The notes beneath the pieces are model-generated. The model did no database searches and was not told the origin of the DNA. It worked only from the letters and a program-made list of their open reading frames with translations. The translations under genes and the position numbers were made by a program. Shown here one piece after another: positions 1 through 34,657 of a DNA stretch of 34,657 nucleotides; position 1 is the stretch's first letter; every line of letters begins with the position of its first letter. Source of the DNA: a virus (lineage: Duplodnaviria > Caudoviricetes); the IMG/VR virus record IMGVR_UViG_3300033076_001306, positions 1 to 34,657 of that record; one strand, written 5' to 3'.

Positions 1-66
1 AGCCGTGGGAGCGCAACCCGCACTAGCAGGCTGTTTGGCTTCGGGTGTGTTTGTGTTGGTTTCCAT
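1..66 (-). CDS. 5' part of a cassette-type ORF running off the window (METNTNTPEAKQPASAGCAPTA...)
   Basis: ATG at 66 just after the stop of 71..430; open to window edge; start lies inside the attC-like loop. Confidence 0.4.
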   Translation of the reverse strand, partial: METNTNTPEAKQPASAGCAPTA

Positions 67-107
67 AAGTTTATTCGGGTGCGGGTGCATCCACATTGGC
101 GTTCAGC
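1..107 (+). mobile_element. attC-like site 1 (left end truncated by window)
   Basis: Imperfect inverted repeat GTGGGAGCGCAACCCGCAC ... GTGCGGGTGCATCCAC with bulged bases, ending in GTTCAGC at 101-107. Confidence 0.7.
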
Positions 108-430
108 AGATAATTCACCAACCGCGTCGGGGTGTTGATGATCGGCCCGCCCTTGTGTTGCACGATTCCCCCGGAATGGACGTAGGTCATCACCGTGCCT
201 CGATCATCACCGAGAGCGTGCGCGACTTCGCGGATTTGATCGTCGATCTCCATCCAGAAGTGTTTGTAGATCCGCGCTTCGTGAGGTTGCTTGAAGCCTG
301 GGGCGCATCGGTCCATGAACTTCTCAAATTCGTTTCCCCACTTGACGAGTCTCCCGATGATACGGGCGATGTCCTGCGGCGTTGTCTCTTGGCCGAAGCC
401 TCGGCAGATTGTGTTGTCGGCGTTTTTCAT
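71..430 (-). CDS. hypothetical protein (cassette 1)
   Basis: ORF 71..451 with likely ATG at 430 (MKNADN...); lies between attC-like sites. Confidence 0.65.
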   Translation of the reverse strand: MKNADNTICRGFGQETTPQDIARIIGRLVKWGNEFEKFMDRCAPGFKQPHEARIYKHFWMEIDDQIREVAHALGDDRGTVMTYVHSGGIVQHKGGPIINTPTRLVNYLLNANVDAPAPE

Positions 431-442
431 AATTCGGAAGAT

Positions 443-538
443 GCTGAACAAGTGAGTGGATTTGATCCGGAATGAGCGGGCCAGTTTTGATGCTATGGCT
501 TTTCAACGGCTCCGGGCGCATCACTCCCGGCGTTGTGT
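443..538 (+). mobile_element. attC-like site 2
   Basis: GCTGAAC (443-449) ... GAGTG-G-AT..TCCGGA / TCCGGG..AT-CACTC ... GTTGTGT (532-538); TGCTGAAC is the reverse complement of GTTCAGCA at 101-108. Confidence 0.7.
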
Positions 539-861
539 GGAATTGTAGGAATAGGCATCCACCCTCTGAGATCGCGGTTGTCTTCCGTCTCAAACTCCCA
601 CCAGCAATCATGCACTTCCGTGCTTTCCACGGTTTCCGCACTCGCGTTGTAAACCGCCACATTCCAGGTGCAGCTCATCCGGGACCATGCGGCAGGGACC
701 AGCCACGGCCAGCCGAAGTCAGCGAGGATCATTGTGCCGTCGTGCGGGGCCGTCTCCGCAGCCAATAAAACCACACCCCCTTCCGGTCGCTTGGGAGAGA
801 GACAGCTTTGACAGATGAGTTGTGGCTCATTGTGTCTTTTGAGGCATGAGGGGCAGATCAT
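493..861 (-). CDS. hypothetical protein with N-terminal CxxC..CxxC and Trp-rich domain (cassette 2)
   Basis: 122-aa ORF; MICPSC...CQSC; C-terminal GWMPIP resembles small phage early proteins. Confidence 0.65.
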   Translation of the reverse strand: MICPSCLKRHNEPQLICQSCLSPKRPEGGVVLLAAETAPHDGTMILADFGWPWLVPAAWSRMSCTWNVAVYNASAETVESTEVHDCWWEFETEDNRDLRGWMPIPTIPHNAGSDAPGAVEKP

Positions 862-880
862 AGTTCGCTTCCTTCAGAGG

Positions 881-909
881 TTCCGGGCGGGAGGGCTCCG
901 GCGTTAGGT
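881..909 (+). mobile_element. partial attC-like site (right arm only)
   Basis: TCCGGGCG...CTCCGGCGTTAGGT resembles the right arm of site 2 (TCCGGGCG...CTCCCGGCGTT); no matching left arm found. Confidence 0.45.
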
Positions 910-1194
910 GACTGCTCGCACATACACTTCCCACGAGTTTTTGAGCCGCATTCTTGCAGACTCGAATCCGATGTTGTCTTTGAATGACCACCCTTCACCG
1001 TTCCACGAAAAGAGGTCATACGACTCGTCGCCGCAATCGGTCAGGCGATACATCCCGCCGCCGTGGTTGCACAGATACACCACGTCACCTAACAAGAGCG
1101 GTGCAGCGAATGACTGCCCCGCCTTGCCGTTTCCGAGCGGCGTCGTGGTTTGTGGCCGCGTCTTGTCGTTGTTGCGTTTCTTCCGGGCAGTCAT
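904..1194 (-). CDS. hypothetical protein (cassette 3)
   Basis: 96-aa ORF; ATGA overlap with rusA stop; body flanked by GTTAGGTGAC (903-912) and GTCACCTAAC (1084-1093). Confidence 0.65.
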   Translation of the reverse strand: MTARKKRNNDKTRPQTTTPLGNGKAGQSFAAPLLLGDVVYLCNHGGGMYRLTDCGDESYDLFSWNGEGWSFKDNIGFESARMRLKNSWEVYVRAVT

Positions 1195-1215
1195 CGCTGA
1201 CCTTTCTCGTTCATC
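1087..1215 (+). mobile_element. attC-like site 3
   Basis: ACCTAAC-AAGAGC-GGT(G)CAGCGA(A)TGACTGCCC ... GGGCAGTCA-TCGCTG-ACC-TTTCTC-GTTCATC: paired arms with two extra bases spaced as in attC sites. Confidence 0.8.
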
Positions 1216-1658
1216 CAGATCTCCACTCGCGGATCATTGGCGTCCCATGCCATGCTGGCCGATCCGCTTTGGCGGAGGTGGTGGTCATCGATCCGGAGGG
1301 CGTCGGCGATGCCATCTCGGTAGGCCTTGCAAGAGGCGGCAGCGTTGTCATCGTCGCGGTGGCGGCGATCGGGGAAATAGAACGCCAGGGTGTAGGTGCT
1401 GGGCTTTGGCGGTTCGTCTGGGAAAAGCAGGGCGGAGAGGCGACGGTAGAAATCGGCATTGCGTCCGGCCTTGGTGAGGCCCAGGCGCTTGGCGTCCTTC
1501 AACGTGATCCGGGTGGGTAGGTTTCTGCATCCCAGGGCCGCCAAGGTGGCAAAGAAGGCGGCCTGCCGGTGCTTCCGCGTGATGCCGGCCTTTTTGAGCG
1601 GATGGGTGCGGCTGTTTGGAGCCAAGGCTGGATCGGGAATGGGAAGCACGATGATCAT
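1191..1658 (-). CDS. rusA: RusA-family Holliday junction resolvase
   Basis: Motif FYFPDRRHRDDDNAAASCKAYRDGIADALRIDD and C-terminal PRVEI; start at MIIVLP overlaps the upstream stop (ATGA). Confidence 0.85.
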   Translation of the reverse strand: MIIVLPIPDPALAPNSRTHPLKKAGITRKHRQAAFFATLAALGCRNLPTRITLKDAKRLGLTKAGRNADFYRRLSALLFPDEPPKPSTYTLAFYFPDRRHRDDDNAAASCKAYRDGIADALRIDDHHLRQSGSASMAWDANDPRVEIWMNEKGQR

Positions 1659-5512: not shown

Positions 5513-5672
5513 AGCAGAGACATTCCCCTGGCGTGGCCATTGGAAACGCTTGGAAATGTCCCTCGCGATGCGTTCAAAAGGACACTATTGAAATGCCGGA
5601 GACAGGACTCGAACCTGCAACACCCGTCAAGAAAATCACGGATTGGGCGCTTCTGGTCCGACCGTGTTCCGA
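5471..5672. mobile_element. attP: core 5594-5619 matching a tRNA 3' end, with flanking arm-type repeats
   Basis: Minus strand TGCAGGTTCGAGTCCTGTCTCCGGCA = T-arm plus acceptor 3' strand (tRNA-Leu-like); paired GNTCCGA repeats at 5471/5481 and 5655/5666. Confidence 0.8.
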
Positions 5673-6274
5673 TCAATCGAGGGTTGTGGGAGGTGGAAAT
5701 CGACCTCTCCGCAGAAGTCAGCGGCGAGGGATTTGAAGCGGGGGAGTTCGGCTGGGATCTTGGAAAATGCCGAGTCGTCGGAGAGGAGGCGGTTGTTGGG
5801 AACCGCGGCGAACCACCCGGCGGCAACCTGAAGGACGTGGAGTTGCTTGTGCTGCTCGAAACAGTCGGCCAAGGCGTTTCCGGAGAAATCGACGGTGAAG
5901 AGATAGCGGGCTTCGAGGCGGGCCGGGAACTTGGGCGTGTGGTGGTTGAGAAGCCAGGCTCGGGAGTTCTTGAGGAGGGCGAAGGAATGGACGGCGAAAT
6001 GCTCGCTGAACGTGTCCCAGGGCTGGGTGAGATCGGCCGGCGGGCGCTGGCATTCCTTCCAACAAAGGGCCTGGATCGGGAGGCAGAACATGGCGCCACC
6101 GTGGGTCTCGTCCTCGAAGCGGACCTGGAATTGCAGGGAGTGACCTTCCTGGCAACGGATGCCGAGGATGTGGGCCCGGATGAATTCCCCCTCGCCGGAT
6201 TTGAAGTTCTGAGTGAATTCCCGGCGGACCAGGCAGGAAATGAGGACAGGGAGATCGGCAAGGATGTCGGGCAT
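5636..6274 (-). CDS. conserved phage hypothetical protein
   Basis: 212 aa; motifs GAMFCLPIQAL, QPWDTFS, YLFTVDF, HKQLHVL..GWFAAVPNNRL recalled from an uncharacterised aquatic-phage family. Confidence 0.7.
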   Translation of the reverse strand: MPDILADLPVLISCLVRREFTQNFKSGEGEFIRAHILGIRCQEGHSLQFQVRFEDETHGGAMFCLPIQALCWKECQRPPADLTQPWDTFSEHFAVHSFALLKNSRAWLLNHHTPKFPARLEARYLFTVDFSGNALADCFEQHKQLHVLQVAAGWFAAVPNNRLLSDDSAFSKIPAELPRFKSLAADFCGEVDFHLPQPSIDRNTVGPEAPNP

Positions 6275-7958: not shown

Positions 7959-9278
7959 TCATGATCCAATGGCTGGTGGGTCGTAGCTGGAAACGACTTC
8001 GCCACCCCATGAGGTGTATCGGTAGGTGCCTCCACCCAGGACGCTGATCGTCATCGCGAGCGTGGTCGCATCGGCAGGAACGTCCATGACTGGCGAGACG
8101 TAAACGCCGGCAGATGGGATTTCGACCGCGTAGGAGGCCCCAGCATCAACACCGGAACGGACCACGCCGACAGTCAGACCGCCGGTGCCATTGACCGAGG
8201 CGAAGGCGTCAACTTGGTAGGCGCAATAGCCGGGCGAAGTCGCCCAATCGGCCTTCCGAACGAATTCCATTTCAAGCCAGAAGCGGACCTTGTTCCCGGC
8301 CCATCCAGCGGGCAGCGCGATGGTGGTCGTGGCCGTGTTGAGCTGCGACGGATCGGTGCGGGCGTTCGGCGAGTGGACGAGCTGCTGCCAAGTCTTGCCA
8401 CTGCTCGCGACTTTCGTCTGCGCGTTGCGGCCGGACGAGAACACGGAGTAGCCGGTGGCCAGCGTGGTGCCACCGGTCATGGTGGGGTTCACCCCCTTGA
8501 GCGCGGCAATGCGCGTTGAGGTCAACGGTTCCGGGCCGAGATTGTAGGTTGTATCAAGCCAGGTGGCGAGCGCGGCACCGAGGACGGAGGCTCCGTAGGT
8601 GTTGAGGTGGGTCCCGTCACCCTGCATGATTCCGGGCAATGGCTCGCCGGTGCTCGGGTTCTGGAGGACGGTGTTTGGGTCGAAGTAAGGCAGGCCCGCG
8701 GCGTTGCACCCGGCGATGATCGCGGCGTTGGCCGATTGCTGTCTGGACCAGTAGCCCGCGCCGCCGGAGGCCGTTGAGGCGCGAGGACCGATCAGCATGA
8801 CGATCGGAACAATTCCAGCGGAACGGAGCGGCGTGATGATCGCGTTGAGACTGGTCCACACGGTTGAGCCGGACGATCCGTTGCCAACGTCGTTGTTGCC
8901 GCAGTAGAGGATCGCGGCGTCTGGAGCGGCGGCCAGCACCTCAGGGACGTGCGTGGCGAGGATCTGAGAGTTGGTGTAGCCGTAGGTGGCGAACTCGTAG
9001 GTGTTTGCGGTCGGGCAGCGCACGGCCATGAGGCGCTGCTTGAGTGCCGCGCATGCCCAAGTGCTAAATCCATGGCCGGTAAAATAGCGGTTGGTGCCTG
9101 CCAGTGTCGTCGGCGAAAATCCCTGCTCTACACTCGATGAGCCGACGAAGGCAACGGAGCGGATGGGTGAAGAAACATCGGCCGCGCTGAAAATTCCGCC
9201 CACGCCGAGAATGCCGCGGCGGGGTTTGATGATCCCGCCACCGCTGAAAATTCCGCCTTCACCGATGATTCCGATCAT
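7959..9278 (-). CDS. SGNH/GDSL hydrolase-domain protein (tail-associated esterase candidate)
   Basis: Blocks FVGSSS, YGYT, YCGNND, GDGTH; C-terminal beta-rich domain; start MIGIIG overlaps the upstream TAA. Confidence 0.8.
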   Translation of the reverse strand: MIGIIGEGGIFSGGGIIKPRRGILGVGGIFSAADVSSPIRSVAFVGSSSVEQGFSPTTLAGTNRYFTGHGFSTWACAALKQRLMAVRCPTANTYEFATYGYTNSQILATHVPEVLAAAPDAAILYCGNNDVGNGSSGSTVWTSLNAIITPLRSAGIVPIVMLIGPRASTASGGAGYWSRQQSANAAIIAGCNAAGLPYFDPNTVLQNPSTGEPLPGIMQGDGTHLNTYGASVLGAALATWLDTTYNLGPEPLTSTRIAALKGVNPTMTGGTTLATGYSVFSSGRNAQTKVASSGKTWQQLVHSPNARTDPSQLNTATTTIALPAGWAGNKVRFWLEMEFVRKADWATSPGYCAYQVDAFASVNGTGGLTVGVVRSGVDAGASYAVEIPSAGVYVSPVMDVPADATTLAMTISVLGGGTYRYTSWGGEVVSSYDPPAIGS

Positions 9279-9571
9279 TATTTGACGGGGACGAAGGTGA
9301 CGTAAACAGGATTTCCGGAGGTGATGGAGGCGCAGTTGATGCGGATGGAACTGCTTGGCGCGATCAAGCGGCATTCCGTGGTGCCATCCGCAAATGGCAC
9401 TTCGCCGTTGTTGATCGACCGATATGCGTTCTGACCTTGGTCCAGGTAGGAAAGGAAGAGCACAAACGCATCGTCCGAGCTGAACGATGCGAGATATTCC
9501 TGGCCCGGGATAGTCGCGACATCATAGTCACCGGTGGACGTGATCGGATTGTTTCCAGCAAGTACAGCCAT
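9278..9571 (-). CDS. small beta-rich virion/tail protein
   Basis: 97-aa ORF coupled (TAATG) to the SGNH gene and downstream of a late motif. Confidence 0.65.
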   Translation of the reverse strand: MAVLAGNNPITSTGDYDVATIPGQEYLASFSSDDAFVLFLSYLDQGQNAYRSINNGEVPFADGTTECRLIAPSSSIRINCASITSGNPVYVTFVPVK

Positions 9572-31268: not shown

Positions 31269-31664
31269 TTAGATGTTCGGTGGACCCTTGCGGGCGGCTT
31301 TCCGGTCGCGTTTCCGCTGGGCCGCCGCCATCCGCTCCAGGTCGGCGTCTGTCTTCGGTCGCTTGGGGTCATGGCGTATCGACGCGGATGACGGGCCACC
31401 ACCGGGCAAGCCGAAGGTTCCGGCCATCGCCATTGCTCCGGCGATGAATGCCAGCGCGGGCAGTCGCGAGCGGCGGACGAGGGGCGGCTCGGGTGCTTCG
31501 TATTCGACGTGCGCCGTGTTGATCGTGATGCCGCGCTCGGGCGGCTCGACGACCACGACGGGGCTTGCGGGCCGGTTGGCCATTGCTGCGACGACGGAGG
31601 CCGTCATCGTGGTCCTTCCATGGTCCACGTGGCCGATCATTCCGATATTGAGGTGAGGCTTCAT
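31269..31664 (-). CDS. EF-Tu N-terminal mimic protein (cassette-borne)
   Basis: [22 protein letters not shown]...[14 protein letters not shown] matches the EF-Tu P-loop and effector region; rest unrelated (hydrophobic segment, basic tail). Confidence 0.8.
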
Positions 31665-31680
31665 AGGTAGGTTCAAAGAC

Positions 31681-31767
31681 ACCGAACAAGGGCGGGGAGG
31701 CGATGCCGGTCAGCCGTTATCGGGTAGCGAGCCCTCGGGCGGCAACGCCTCCCGACCAGCGCTCACT
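31681..31767 (+). mobile_element. attC-like site 4 (solo cassette 31276-31761)
   Basis: ACCGAAC-AAGGG-CGG(G)GAGG-CG-ATGCCG...CGGCAA-CG-CCTCCCG-ACCAGC-GCT; CACCGAAC (31680-31687) complements GTTCGGTG (31275-31282). Confidence 0.7.
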
Positions 31768-33671: not shown

Positions 33672-34510
33672 GAGTGGGTGGAGTTGAGGATCTTGACGGT
33701 GGAGGCCTTCCGGCCGCCGAGGTCGAGCGGGGCCGGTTGCTCGCCATTCCGATCTCCGGCGCGGAGCCAGGTCTGCGGATCGTCCTGCCAGCGTTTTTCC
33801 CGGAAGAAACGGTAGGCCCCGAGGACGAACTTGTTGTTGTGCGCGGAGGGGAGCTGGGCGATCACGGCGGCGATCGCGCGGGTGCCGGCGAGCATGGCCT
33901 CCGGATCTGCTCCGGCCTCAAGCTGGGCGAGGACCTCGAGGAGGCAGCGCTCGGAATCCTCGCGGCGAGGGTAGGCGGCGACGATCGAGTGAGCGTGACG
34001 GGAATGATCCGGCTGGTCCTGCTCTTCTTCTTCTGAAGAAATACCCTTACCCTTACCCTTACCCTTACCCTTACCCCTTTGATGCCCTTGGGAGGGCTTG
34101 GTGATTTCACTGATTTCAGAGGCGAGTTTTTGGAGCTCCGGATTGGCTTCGAAGAAAGCCCTTCGAAGGGCTTCGCTCATTCCCAACGCATGTTTGACCG
34201 CGCCGATGACGATCTTGTTGTGGGTTGAAACTGCGCCGTTCTTTGAGCATTGGTGGCGGACGTAGTTCCGGATGAAGATGGTGCCGTCCTCCAGGGTGTG
34301 AATGGAATTTGTGAAGCCCTTGCAAGCCCTTCCAAGGGCTTCGAAGGGGATGCCTGTTTCAAACTCGAACCAGCGTTTCTCCGGACGGCAGAATCCGCAG
34401 AGATCCAGCCGGGAGTTGGTCATGAGCCAGAGAATGGCGAGCTTTTCCTCGGGAGAAAGTGCTCCGACGCGATCATCGGACCAGAAGATGGATTTGACTT
34501 GGGAGTGCAT
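33668..34510 (-). CDS. phage replication initiator (O-like)
   Basis: FWSDDRV..KLAILWLMTN N-terminus, GK repeat linker, AYPRR..FFREKRWQD C-terminus; upstream of loader; internal iterons. Confidence 0.75.
   Translation of the reverse strand: MHSQVKSIFWSDDRVGALSPEEKLAILWLMTNSRLDLCGFCRPEKRWFEFETGIPFEALGRACKGFTNSIHTLEDGTIFIRNYVRHQCSKNGAVSTHNKIVIGAVKHALGMSEALRRAFFEANPELQKLASEISEITKPSQGHQRGKGKGKGKGKGISSEEEEQDQPDHSRHAHSIVAAYPRREDSERCLLEVLAQLEAGADPEAMLAGTRAIAAVIAQLPSAHNNKFVLGAYRFFREKRWQDDPQTWLRAGDRNGEQPAPLDLGGRKASTVKILNSTHS
34042..34350. repeat. putative replication origin: AAGCCCTT iterons and TACCCT tandem repeat
   Basis: About 6 TACCCT copies at 34042-34076; AAGCCCTTCGAAGGGCTT palindrome at 34156-34173; 10-bp-spaced AAGCCCTT/AAGGGCTT at 34314-34350; variants at 34082-34099. 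Confidence 0.65.
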
Positions 34511-34531
34511 GGGTGTGTTGGGAAATGGGGG

Positions 34532-34657
34532 TTAGTCCTCGCGGATGATGGTGACGGACTCGGAAAGGTCTTCGACTACCAGCGGCTTGCAGCCTGCGGC
34601 GCGCATGCTGTTGTTGATCGTCTCGCGAAGGGGATTGGTGCGTGGGCGGTCGACCAC
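34532..34657 (-). CDS. 3' end of hypothetical protein (truncated by window)
   Basis: Open frame ...TNPLRETINNSMRAAGCKPLVVEDLSESVTIIRED-stop. Confidence 0.4.
   Translation of the reverse strand: MVDRPRTNPLRETINNSMRAAGCKPLVVEDLSESVTIIRED

What the first reader, a model, noticed from the sequence alone, without database searches (positions are those of the whole stretch)
1..1215. Phage-borne array of integron-type attC cassettes in inverted orientation, joined to the 3' end of rusA
Seen: three attC-like hairpins (1-107, 443-538, 1087-1215) plus a half site (881-909), with AAC...GTT ends and extra unpaired bases on one arm. Cassette ends are self-complementary, as expected for cassettes that circularise: GTTCAGCA (101) with TGCTGAAC (442), and GTTAGGTGAC (903) with GTCACCTAAC (1084). 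All ORFs run antisense to the canonical attC orientation, so the phage early operon would transcribe them. Established: attC sites are recombined as folded single strands by IntI integrases. Inference: the phage acquires or shuffles accessory genes using a host IntI in trans, since no IntI is visible here.
Basis: partly seen in the sequence, partly recalled or inferred. Interest (0 to 1): 0.9.

Follow-up and report, generated by a model that had tools for sequence, protein, structure and literature searches.

The report
Backwards integron cassettes in a phage
A temperate phage carries small genes separated by integron-type DNA hairpins but read in the opposite direction to bacterial cassettes; relatives change neighbours exactly at the hairpins' crossover point, so the phage likely swaps accessory genes with an integron integrase that it does not encode.

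Summary
Observation largely confirmed. A covariance model built only from other phages' sites finds all three attC sites (1-107, 443-538, 1087-1215) and a fourth at 31681-31767. The 881-909 element is a right half only, and site 2 is decayed. The units are mobile. A viral contig shares cassette 2 starting exactly at G^TT 532. Nineteen near-identical cassette-1 proteins diverge right after the crossover codon. One wastewater run holds cassette 1 alone, with a 431-base end-to-start junction (circle or tandem copy). Genes run antisense to the sites, and the sites donate stop codons and overlapping ATGA starts in frame with the crossover (45 of 74 viral junctions, rusA included). No IntI lies in this 97%-complete genome. 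Chromosomal integrons of Akkermansiaceae-type Verrucomicrobia, the likely hosts, carry the same site family in normal orientation, and 68 of 151 genomes searched have IntI. Two related phages carry their own divergent IntI, so the enzyme source is not settled. No attI was found here, and no recombination was tested. The scan found this arrangement before on other DNA (23 notes). The closest paper is on phage CALINs (PMC9892861). New variant of a known kind.

The parts
1..107 (+). attC site 1 (top strand +), cut by the contig start just after its AAC; crossover G^TT at 101; holds the stop of gene 1 and the start (ATG 66, minus strand) of a further cassette gene that runs off the contig
   Evidence: a contig of run X2 matches 4-104, supplies the missing AAC before it and diverges after 104
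102..532 (+). cassette 1, 431 bases, ends complementary 8 of 8
   Evidence: run X10 covers only about 99-528 and has a 528-to-98 joint going back 431
71..430 (-). gene of cassette 1, 119 aa, mostly helical, no known family; Asn110 is the crossover AAC and the tail comes from site 1
443..538 (+). attC site 2, decayed arms; AAC 447, crossover G^TT 532; holds the stop of gene 2
   Evidence: run X1 holds 446-534 alone
493..861 (-). gene of cassette 2, 122 aa, DUF551-like phage protein by language-model features; N-terminal 29 residues foreign to the family
   Evidence: L056 is 89% identical over 531-776
771..779 (+). broken R'' box of cassette 2 (complement of 532-540 with AAC replaced); likely a deletion scar that fused two cassettes
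881..909 (+). half site: right arm and G^TT 903 only
904..1194 (-). gene of cassette 3, 96 aa, unknown function; starts inside site 3, first 35 codons encoded by the site and conserved in 2 of 3 relatives
1087..1215 (+). attC site 3, intact; AAC 1091, two extra bases on the AAC arm, crossover G^TT 1209; supplies the rusA stop overlapping the gene-3 start (ATGA)
1191..1658 (-). RusA-like resolvase gene; the last six codons come from site 3 and differ from relatives, which mostly end ...EITLxP
31276..31761 (+). second, single-cassette locus between the small and large terminase genes; ends pair (31275-31283 with 31679-31687); gene 31269-31682 on the minus strand starts with an EF-Tu-like motif
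31681..31767 (+). attC site 4 with good arms but GCT in place of GTT; abuts the terS stop codon
4238..5512 (+). phage integrase for lysogeny; not an IntI
   Evidence: phrog_1 E 7e-13; no NCBIfam IntI hit

Best explanation
The stretch is an array of integron-type gene cassettes in a temperate phage, with each gene on the strand opposite to the bacterial norm, and it was likely built by an IntI-family integrase supplied in trans, most likely the chromosomal IntI of a Verrucomicrobia (Akkermansiaceae-like) host. Shown: attC-family sites, cassette borders at G^TT, exchange of neighbours at that point among relatives, antisense genes, and no IntI in the contig. Inferred mechanism: the bottom strand folds, IntI cuts at G^TT, a cassette (its gene plus the attC at the gene's 5' end) leaves as a circle and inserts at another G^TT. 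The first insertion here hit the last codons of rusA, probably as a secondary (attG-like) site. Because the genes are reversed, each attC heads its own gene. Read on the coding strand, the crossover AAC is an in-frame Asn codon of whatever gene lies upstream; the site then gives that gene a short tail and a stop, often overlapping the next ATG. Any cassette can therefore follow any other and stay translated in the phage's early operon without an integron promoter. This copy is partly eroded: site 3 and cassette 3 look intact, site 2 is weakened, and cassette 2 has lost its own site.
For: Model hits on all three sites. Arm covariation in the family: 95% of cells paired, 9 of 9 pairs with two-sided changes, slid controls 28-48% (alignment fitted to the model). 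Cassette ends match 4 of 4 bases in 100 of 120 viral cassettes, against 19 of 166 for the two ends of one site and 5.9% at random. L056 homology begins at 531 and ends at 776 with other neighbours on both sides. 19 cassette-1 proteins, 82-96% identical to the window's, are near-invariant to residue 110 (Asn in 17 of 19) and then all differ; cassette-2 relatives behave the same way. Run X10 holds cassette 1 alone and a 528-to-98 joint of exactly 431 bases, which also fixes the strand: the crossover is at the + strand GTT. Orientation: host arrays 27 top, 1 bottom, 2 unclear once prophage L306 is set aside; viral arrays 62 bottom, 18 top (9 from one record, L291), 25 unclear. Frame register: AAC read as Asn in 101 of 116 incoming viral ORFs, stop inside the site in 110 of 116, ATGA overlap in 45 of 74. 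Host side: 8 of 9 genome hits of a two-arm pattern are named Verrucomicrobia; L263 is a full integron with IntI at 338 bits over a 265 cut-off; 68 of 151 family genomes have IntI over the cut-off. A prophage in G305 with similar gene order (terL 44% identical) has an inverted array and no IntI, while its host has two elsewhere. IntI-like matches in only 2 of 31 viral records with such sites, 0 of 8 near-complete ones. Phage attC sites are recombined by IntI1 in E. coli (PMC9892861, results read).
Against: No recombination was tested. No attI was found in the window: candidates at 31275 and 34531 rank 36 and 489 of 788 GTT positions under a host-attI matrix. Sites 1 and 2 fold no better than shuffles. 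Viral sites lack the bottom-strand energy bias of host sites (68 of 139 against 38 of 48). No cassette protein was shared between host and phage arrays in an all-against-all comparison, and none of the three cassettes was found in 401 family genomes, so a shared pool is not shown. Two arrays have their own divergent IntI (L284, 180 bits; G305 contig 10, 238 bits). About 3% of this genome is missing, exactly at the far end of the array. The X10 joint rests on one contig of one run laid at 80% likeness, and circle and tandem copy cannot be told apart. The host is inferred, not shown. The model was built from sites picked by my own scorer, which favours extra bases on the AAC arm, so that count (137 of 139) is partly circular.
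Confidence: 0.72

Rival explanations
1. Same sites and chemistry, but the enzyme is a phage-borne, divergent IntI: encoded by a co-resident prophage or co-infecting phage, or lying in the roughly 1 kb missing from this contig. Phage cassettes would then be a pool of their own, largely apart from the host integron.
For: L284 has a 360-aa IntI-like gene that keeps the IntI insertion, directly after an inverted array and in the same direction as the cassette genes. A terminase-bearing prophage in G305 has another (329 aa). No cassettes are shared between host and phage sets. The contig breaks inside the array.
Against: 29 of 31 viral records, and all 8 near-complete ones, have no match. The two phage enzymes are long, separate branches without support as a clade (FastTree, 29 rows, support about 0.6). 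One phage array ends in a 13-base stretch identical to two host attI sites (L014 against L330 and L335). An IntI gene plus the rest of the array would barely fit in the missing 3%.
Confidence: 0.18
2. A relic: the cassettes were captured once as a block, or by homologous or illegitimate recombination between similar hairpins, and are no longer moved by an integrase in this phage.
For: Site 2 is decayed, cassette 2 lost its site through a non-canonical join (GTT not kept), and site 4 has GCT. PMC9892861 suggests off-target homologous or illegitimate recombination for phage CALINs (discussion read).
Against: Breakpoints fall on the single G^TT base in many independent relatives, not anywhere in the arms. 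Cassette-end complementarity is as strong in phages as in hosts. The genes are phage-type and antisense, unlike host cassettes. Relatives with similar rusA have no site at its end (0 of 12).
Confidence: 0.07
3. The hairpins are RNA regulatory elements (terminators or translation switches) or targets of an unrelated Xer-type phage recombinase, and only resemble attC.
For: They sit at gene starts and stops on the coding strand and could fold in mRNA. An earlier scan note (e1-5771397) tied similar arrays to a Xer-type enzyme.
Against: The same model finds the sites next to true IntI genes in host chromosomes. The search that detects Xer-like proteins in all 14 control genomes found matches in only 2 of 31 viral records, and the stronger of the two scores best as IntI. 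No Rfam family matches. An RNA role does not explain the exchange of neighbours at G^TT; a secondary effect on expression is not excluded.
Confidence: 0.03

Closest known systems
CALINs (clusters of attC sites lacking an integrase) in phage genomes, Qi et al. 2023, PMC9892861
   Same: Several attC sites with small genes in a phage without intI; their sites were recombined by IntI1; methyltransferase cargo, as in relatives here.
   Different: In the parts read (results, discussion, figure legends, a supplement search) they treat them as captured bacterial-type arrays and do not describe genes antisense to the sites. The one TJE1 site that I located (1020-1071) has its gene on the top strand. 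Here genes are antisense, start inside the site and are frame-registered to the crossover.
Sedentary chromosomal integrons of Akkermansiaceae-type Verrucomicrobia (e.g. L263)
   Same: Same attC family by model, same spacer lengths, extra bases on the same arm, same cassette-end complementarity.
   Different: They have intI and attI, genes on the top strand with attC after the gene, longer sites (median 116 against 90) and a bottom-strand folding bias; no shared cassette proteins found.
attG insertion of cassettes outside integrons, Loot et al., bioRxiv 10.1101/2022.09.11.507474
   Same: IntI can insert cassettes at genomic GTT sites unlike attI or attC (passages read); this fits the junction inside the rusA end.
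   Different: Shown for IntI1 in E. coli chromosomes, not for arrays that grow in a phage operon.
Translational coupling in class 1 integrons (ORF-11 of attI1; short ORFs in attC), review PMC8876359
   Same: Recombination sites provide stop codons and reinitiation across the crossover (passages read).
   Different: There it concerns top-strand genes and mostly the first cassette; here the bottom strand of each attC gives tail, stop and start to full genes.

Membership tests
attC site | R'' (AAC) and R' (GTT) boxes flanking an imperfect inverted repeat with a 5-7 base unpaired spacer | tested here: met
   Site 3 fully, spacers 6/6; site 1 with the AAC off the contig; site 2 weak arms; 881-909 not met
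attC site | Extrahelical bases on the arm opposite the bottom-strand AAC (PMC5027507, passage read) | tested here: met
   Sites 1, 3 and 4 have extra bases on the top-strand AAC arm; 45 of 48 host and 137 of 139 viral sites likewise, partly by selection
attC site | Structure conserved by covariation rather than sequence | tested here: met
   9 of 9 pairs with two-sided changes, score 0.90 against 0.06-0.13 when slid; alignment fitted to the model
attC site | Crossover at G^TT of R', cassette ends complementary | tested here: met
attC site | Bottom strand folds more stably than top strand | tested here: inconclusive
   Site 3: -26.6 against -24.7 kcal/mol, site 1 the reverse; viral family 68 of 139, host 38 of 48
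attC site | Hit by the IntegronFinder or HattCI models | not testable with these tools
   Those models are not available; Rfam has no match; own model R1 used instead
attC site | Recombined by IntI as a folded single strand | not testable with these tools
   Needs a recombination assay
Complete integron | intI gene next to the array | tested here: not met
   No TIGR02249 match at E up to 1 in the 97%-complete record; the far end of the array is off the contig
Complete integron | attI site | tested here: inconclusive
   None recognised in the window; the expected place is beyond position 1
Canonical gene cassette | Gene on the top strand, followed by its attC | tested here: not met
   All genes on the bottom strand, headed by their attC
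CALIN | Two or more nearby attC sites without an integron integrase | tested here: met
   Three sites in 1.2 kb, no IntI

The most novel reading that the evidence does not exclude
Phages of integron-rich bacteria keep a mirror-image cassette system. Their genes are built into attC sites on the opposite strand, with the crossover triplet fixed as an in-frame codon and the site supplying stop and overlapping start, so that integrase-driven swaps keep an operon translated. Most phages borrow the host's stress-induced IntI; a few carry a divergent IntI of their own. This would be a site-specific route to phage genome mosaicism and a possible window on how cassettes are made.
Probability: 0.6. Interest if true: 0.85.

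Novelty: new variant of a known kind. Interest (0 to 1): 0.74.

Why it matters
Phage mosaicism is usually put down to homologous or illegitimate recombination (own knowledge). Here the breakpoints fall on one base and the reading frame is registered to it, which points to a programmed gene-swapping system run on a host enzyme. Host integrons have been reported as stores of anti-phage genes (two preprints, seen as search listings), while relatives of this phage carry methyltransferases and a Lar-like protein in their cassettes, so both sides may use the same recombinase. Because the genes are reversed, such a cassette would be silent from the integron promoter if it entered the host array, which would keep the pools apart (inference). 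It is directly testable with the standard attC assay.

Tried and rejected
Rfam: nothing. Repeat finder: no repeat family, as expected for sites conserved in structure. A one-arm 15-base pattern in viral contigs gave mostly chance hits; only a few of 120 loci held sites. Viral-contig searches with the replication initiator and with cassette proteins 1 and 3 found no locus. No match in cultured phage records. None of the three cassettes in 401 host-family genomes (incomplete genomes). Function of cassette protein 1: no Pfam, PHROG or NCBIfam family, no Atlas hit, model pLDDT 80 but no structural match at E 0.001 in PDB or viral structures; only 8 clusters at E 1e-10 among 1.84 billion proteins. 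Protein 3: no family. attI in the window: rejected for 34531 and unsupported for 31275. A hidden left arm for the half site: not found. Promoter scan: no leftward promoter. The partial ORF at the right contig end has no PHROG match in the right frame; it was scanned in wrong frames, and those rows mean nothing. Runs X1-X6 hold only fragments of related phages, and none bridges 1215-1260, so no empty rusA site at strain level was seen. No excision joint in run X17, the probable source. A monophyletic phage IntI clade: not supported. Literature: 7 searches showed no paper on inverted phage cassette arrays; subscription papers and preprint supplements were not visible.

Full report
Context. The window is a whole viral record, 34,657 bases, 97% complete by CheckV. 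It encodes an integrase, an endolysin, portal, capsid, terminases, a replication initiator and a DnaC-like loader, so it is a temperate tailed phage. The leftward early genes run to a RusA-like gene (phrog_34, E 4e-8) and into the finding. The contig breaks inside the array; by gene order it would continue at the right end with the replication genes (inference, supported by relatives L178 and L336).

The observation. I built a covariance model from 31 sites found in other viral and metagenome contigs, with no window sequence. Site 3 is intact: fold z -2.5, arm score 15 against at most 9.5 in shuffles, two extra bases on the AAC arm. Site 1 is cut by the contig start. Site 2 is decayed. The element at 881-909 is a right half without a left arm. 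The end pairings hold: 8 of 8 bases for cassette 1 and 10 of 10 for cassette 3. Cassette 2 keeps six pairing bases but has CCC where AAC should be; relatives have the intact box there, so a deletion probably fused the head of one cassette to the body of another.

The units move, and they break at G^TT. Viral contig L056 is 89% identical to window 531-776, from the crossover of site 2 to the R'' position, and has other genes on both sides. Nineteen cassette-1 proteins, 82-96% identical to the window's, are near-invariant up to residue 110, which is the crossover AAC (Asn in 17 of 19); all 19 tails differ, two of them only late (19 of the 22 members of two clusters aligned: one fragment, one long read-through and the representative P0013 left out). 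Cassette-2 relatives show the same pattern. In run X10 the contigs cover only about 99-528 of 1-1700, and one contig of depth 6.3 joins 528 back to 98, a step of 431 bases, which is 532 minus 101. That is the junction of an excised circle or of a tandem copy. It shows that site 2 travels with gene 1 and that the + strand GTT is the crossover. It is one contig in one of the 8 runs laid. Other runs hold site 1, site 2 or the arms of site 3 with different neighbours. Over the family, cassette ends match 4 of 4 bases in 100 of 120 viral and 26 of 31 host cassettes, against 19 of 166 within one viral site and 5.9% at random (duplicate array L276 dropped).

Orientation and reading frame. By a crude longest-ORF rule, host cassettes were 27 top, 4 bottom, 2 unclear, and 3 of the 4 bottom ones belong to a prophage (L306, within L336). 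Viral cassettes were 62 bottom, 18 top (9 from the 166-kb record L291) and 25 unclear. On the bottom strand, 116 of 146 viral sites have a long incoming ORF; 101 of these read the crossover AAC as Asn, 110 stop inside the site, and 45 of 74 junctions with both a stop and a start have an ATGA overlap. Only 8 of 41 host sites have an incoming ORF (L291, L276, L306 and three short MAG contigs left out). The window follows this grammar. RusA ends MNEKGQR with the Asn on the crossover and its TGA overlapping the ATG of gene 3, whereas most relatives end EITLxP. Genes 1 and 2 also cross on Asn. Gene 3 stops on the TAA that overlaps the AAC. The first 35 codons of gene 3 are the attC itself and are conserved in relatives. 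None of 12 further rusA relatives searched has a site at the rusA end; two have inverted sites elsewhere.

Who recombines them. The record has no match to the integron integrase model at E up to 1; its integrase is of the ordinary phage type. A two-arm pattern hit 9 genomes, 8 of them named Verrucomicrobia, mostly Akkermansiaceae. One, L263, is a complete integron with IntI (338 bits, cut-off 265), attI and normal gene orientation. In that family 68 of 151 genomes have IntI over the cut-off, and the model finds the same sites beside 9 of the 24 intI loci searched, plus L293, which is L263 itself. Genome G305 shows the proposed situation in nature: a prophage with similar gene order and an inverted array without intI, and two chromosomal intI genes elsewhere. 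Of 31 viral records with such sites, 2 have an IntI-like match and none of the 8 near-complete ones does. Against an exclusive host model: L284 and a second prophage of G305 carry divergent IntI-like genes (180 and 238 bits, under the cut-off) directly after inverted arrays. They form long separate branches. No cassette protein is shared between the host and phage sets, and viral sites lack the host's bottom-strand folding bias. Some phage arrays end in host-like attI sequences, others do not, and none was recognised in the window.

Cargo. Gene 2 is DUF551-like by language-model features (score 0.91, clusters 88-96% viral; a lead, not an alignment). Genes 1 and 3 have no known family. Cassettes of relatives include DNA methyltransferases, a PAPS-reductase-like protein and Lar-like proteins, all common phage early accessory genes.

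Mechanism, steps marked. Shown: sites, borders, exchange at G^TT, antisense genes, frame register, no IntI in the contig, IntI in the likely host family. From established work: IntI recombines the folded bottom strand at the AAC of R', and the extra bases set the strand (PMC5027507, passages read); it can also insert at genomic attG sites (10.1101/2022.09.11.507474, passages read). Inferred: host identity; IntI supplied in trans, plausibly during prophage induction, since both respond to SOS (PMC9892861, section 3.1 read); first insertion into the rusA end at a secondary site; expression from the phage early operon through coupled translation; current activity limited to the intact sites.

Comparison with print. 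PMC9892861 (parts 2-4 of 7 read, supplement searched for two terms) reports 17 phage CALINs and shows IntI1 recombination for 5 of 6 sites. In the parts read it does not describe genes antisense to the sites, and the TJE1 site that I located has its gene on the top strand. PMC5027507 states that cassettes facing the promoter have not been seen in integrons. PMC8876359 (passages) describes coupling through attI1 ORF-11 and short attC ORFs. PMC5737381 (passages) describes the unrelated DUF1874 motif. 10.1101/030866 (passages) defines CALINs. Seven searches showed no description of inverted phage arrays; subscription journals and preprint supplements were out of reach. Earlier notes of this scan report the same arrangement in at least 23 other genomes; they are not independent evidence.

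Verdict. A real array of integron-type cassettes in reverse orientation. It works like an integron array without its own integrase; it meets the CALIN definition and fails the canonical cassette orientation. New variant of a known kind, interest 0.74; confidence in IntI-family recombination in trans with the host as the main source 0.72.

Noticed in passing
window 31269-31767: A second, single cassette between terS and terL: paired ends, an attC with GCT instead of GTT at the terS stop, and a 137-aa gene whose start matches the EF-Tu GTP-binding domain (PF00009, E 1e-8, residues 8-63). Relatives L001 and L182 have sites in the same region.
   Followed up: partly
window 34531-34657: The partial ORF at the right contig end stops on a TAA overlapping an AAC, as cassette genes do; it may be the far end of the array across the gap, but the flank is not attI-like and the peptide has no family.
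   Followed up: partly
L284 2823-3872 and L343 8469-9458 (G305 contig 10): Phage-borne divergent IntI-like genes below the family cut-off, in the same direction as the inverted cassette genes: complete backwards integrons.
   Followed up: partly
L343 9836-10219 and 10790-11173: Two ORFs with the same first 50 residues in one inverted array, likely a duplicated cassette.
   Followed up: no
L336 9707-12127 (G305 contig 3): Prophage with an inverted array that includes an acyl carrier protein gene between two sites.
   Followed up: partly
L001 5740-5770 and L002: RusA here also has an extra tail after an in-frame Asn codon and an ATGA overlap with the next gene; possibly the remnant of a half site.
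   Followed up: no
window 656-679 in run X17: Contig depth drops from 10.1 to 5.5 inside gene 2, hinting at a second variant of the array in the probable source sample.
   Followed up: no
L291 2172-10576: A 166-kb viral record with a long array mostly in normal orientation, an exception among viral records; possibly host DNA or a captured host array.
   Followed up: no
window 34040-34080: Short tandem repeat of a six-base unit (about five copies) inside the replication initiator gene.
   Followed up: no
window 7959-9374 and 5636-6274: A GDSL lipase-like gene and a gene of a PHROG family labelled ferredoxin near the lysis and integration genes.
   Followed up: no
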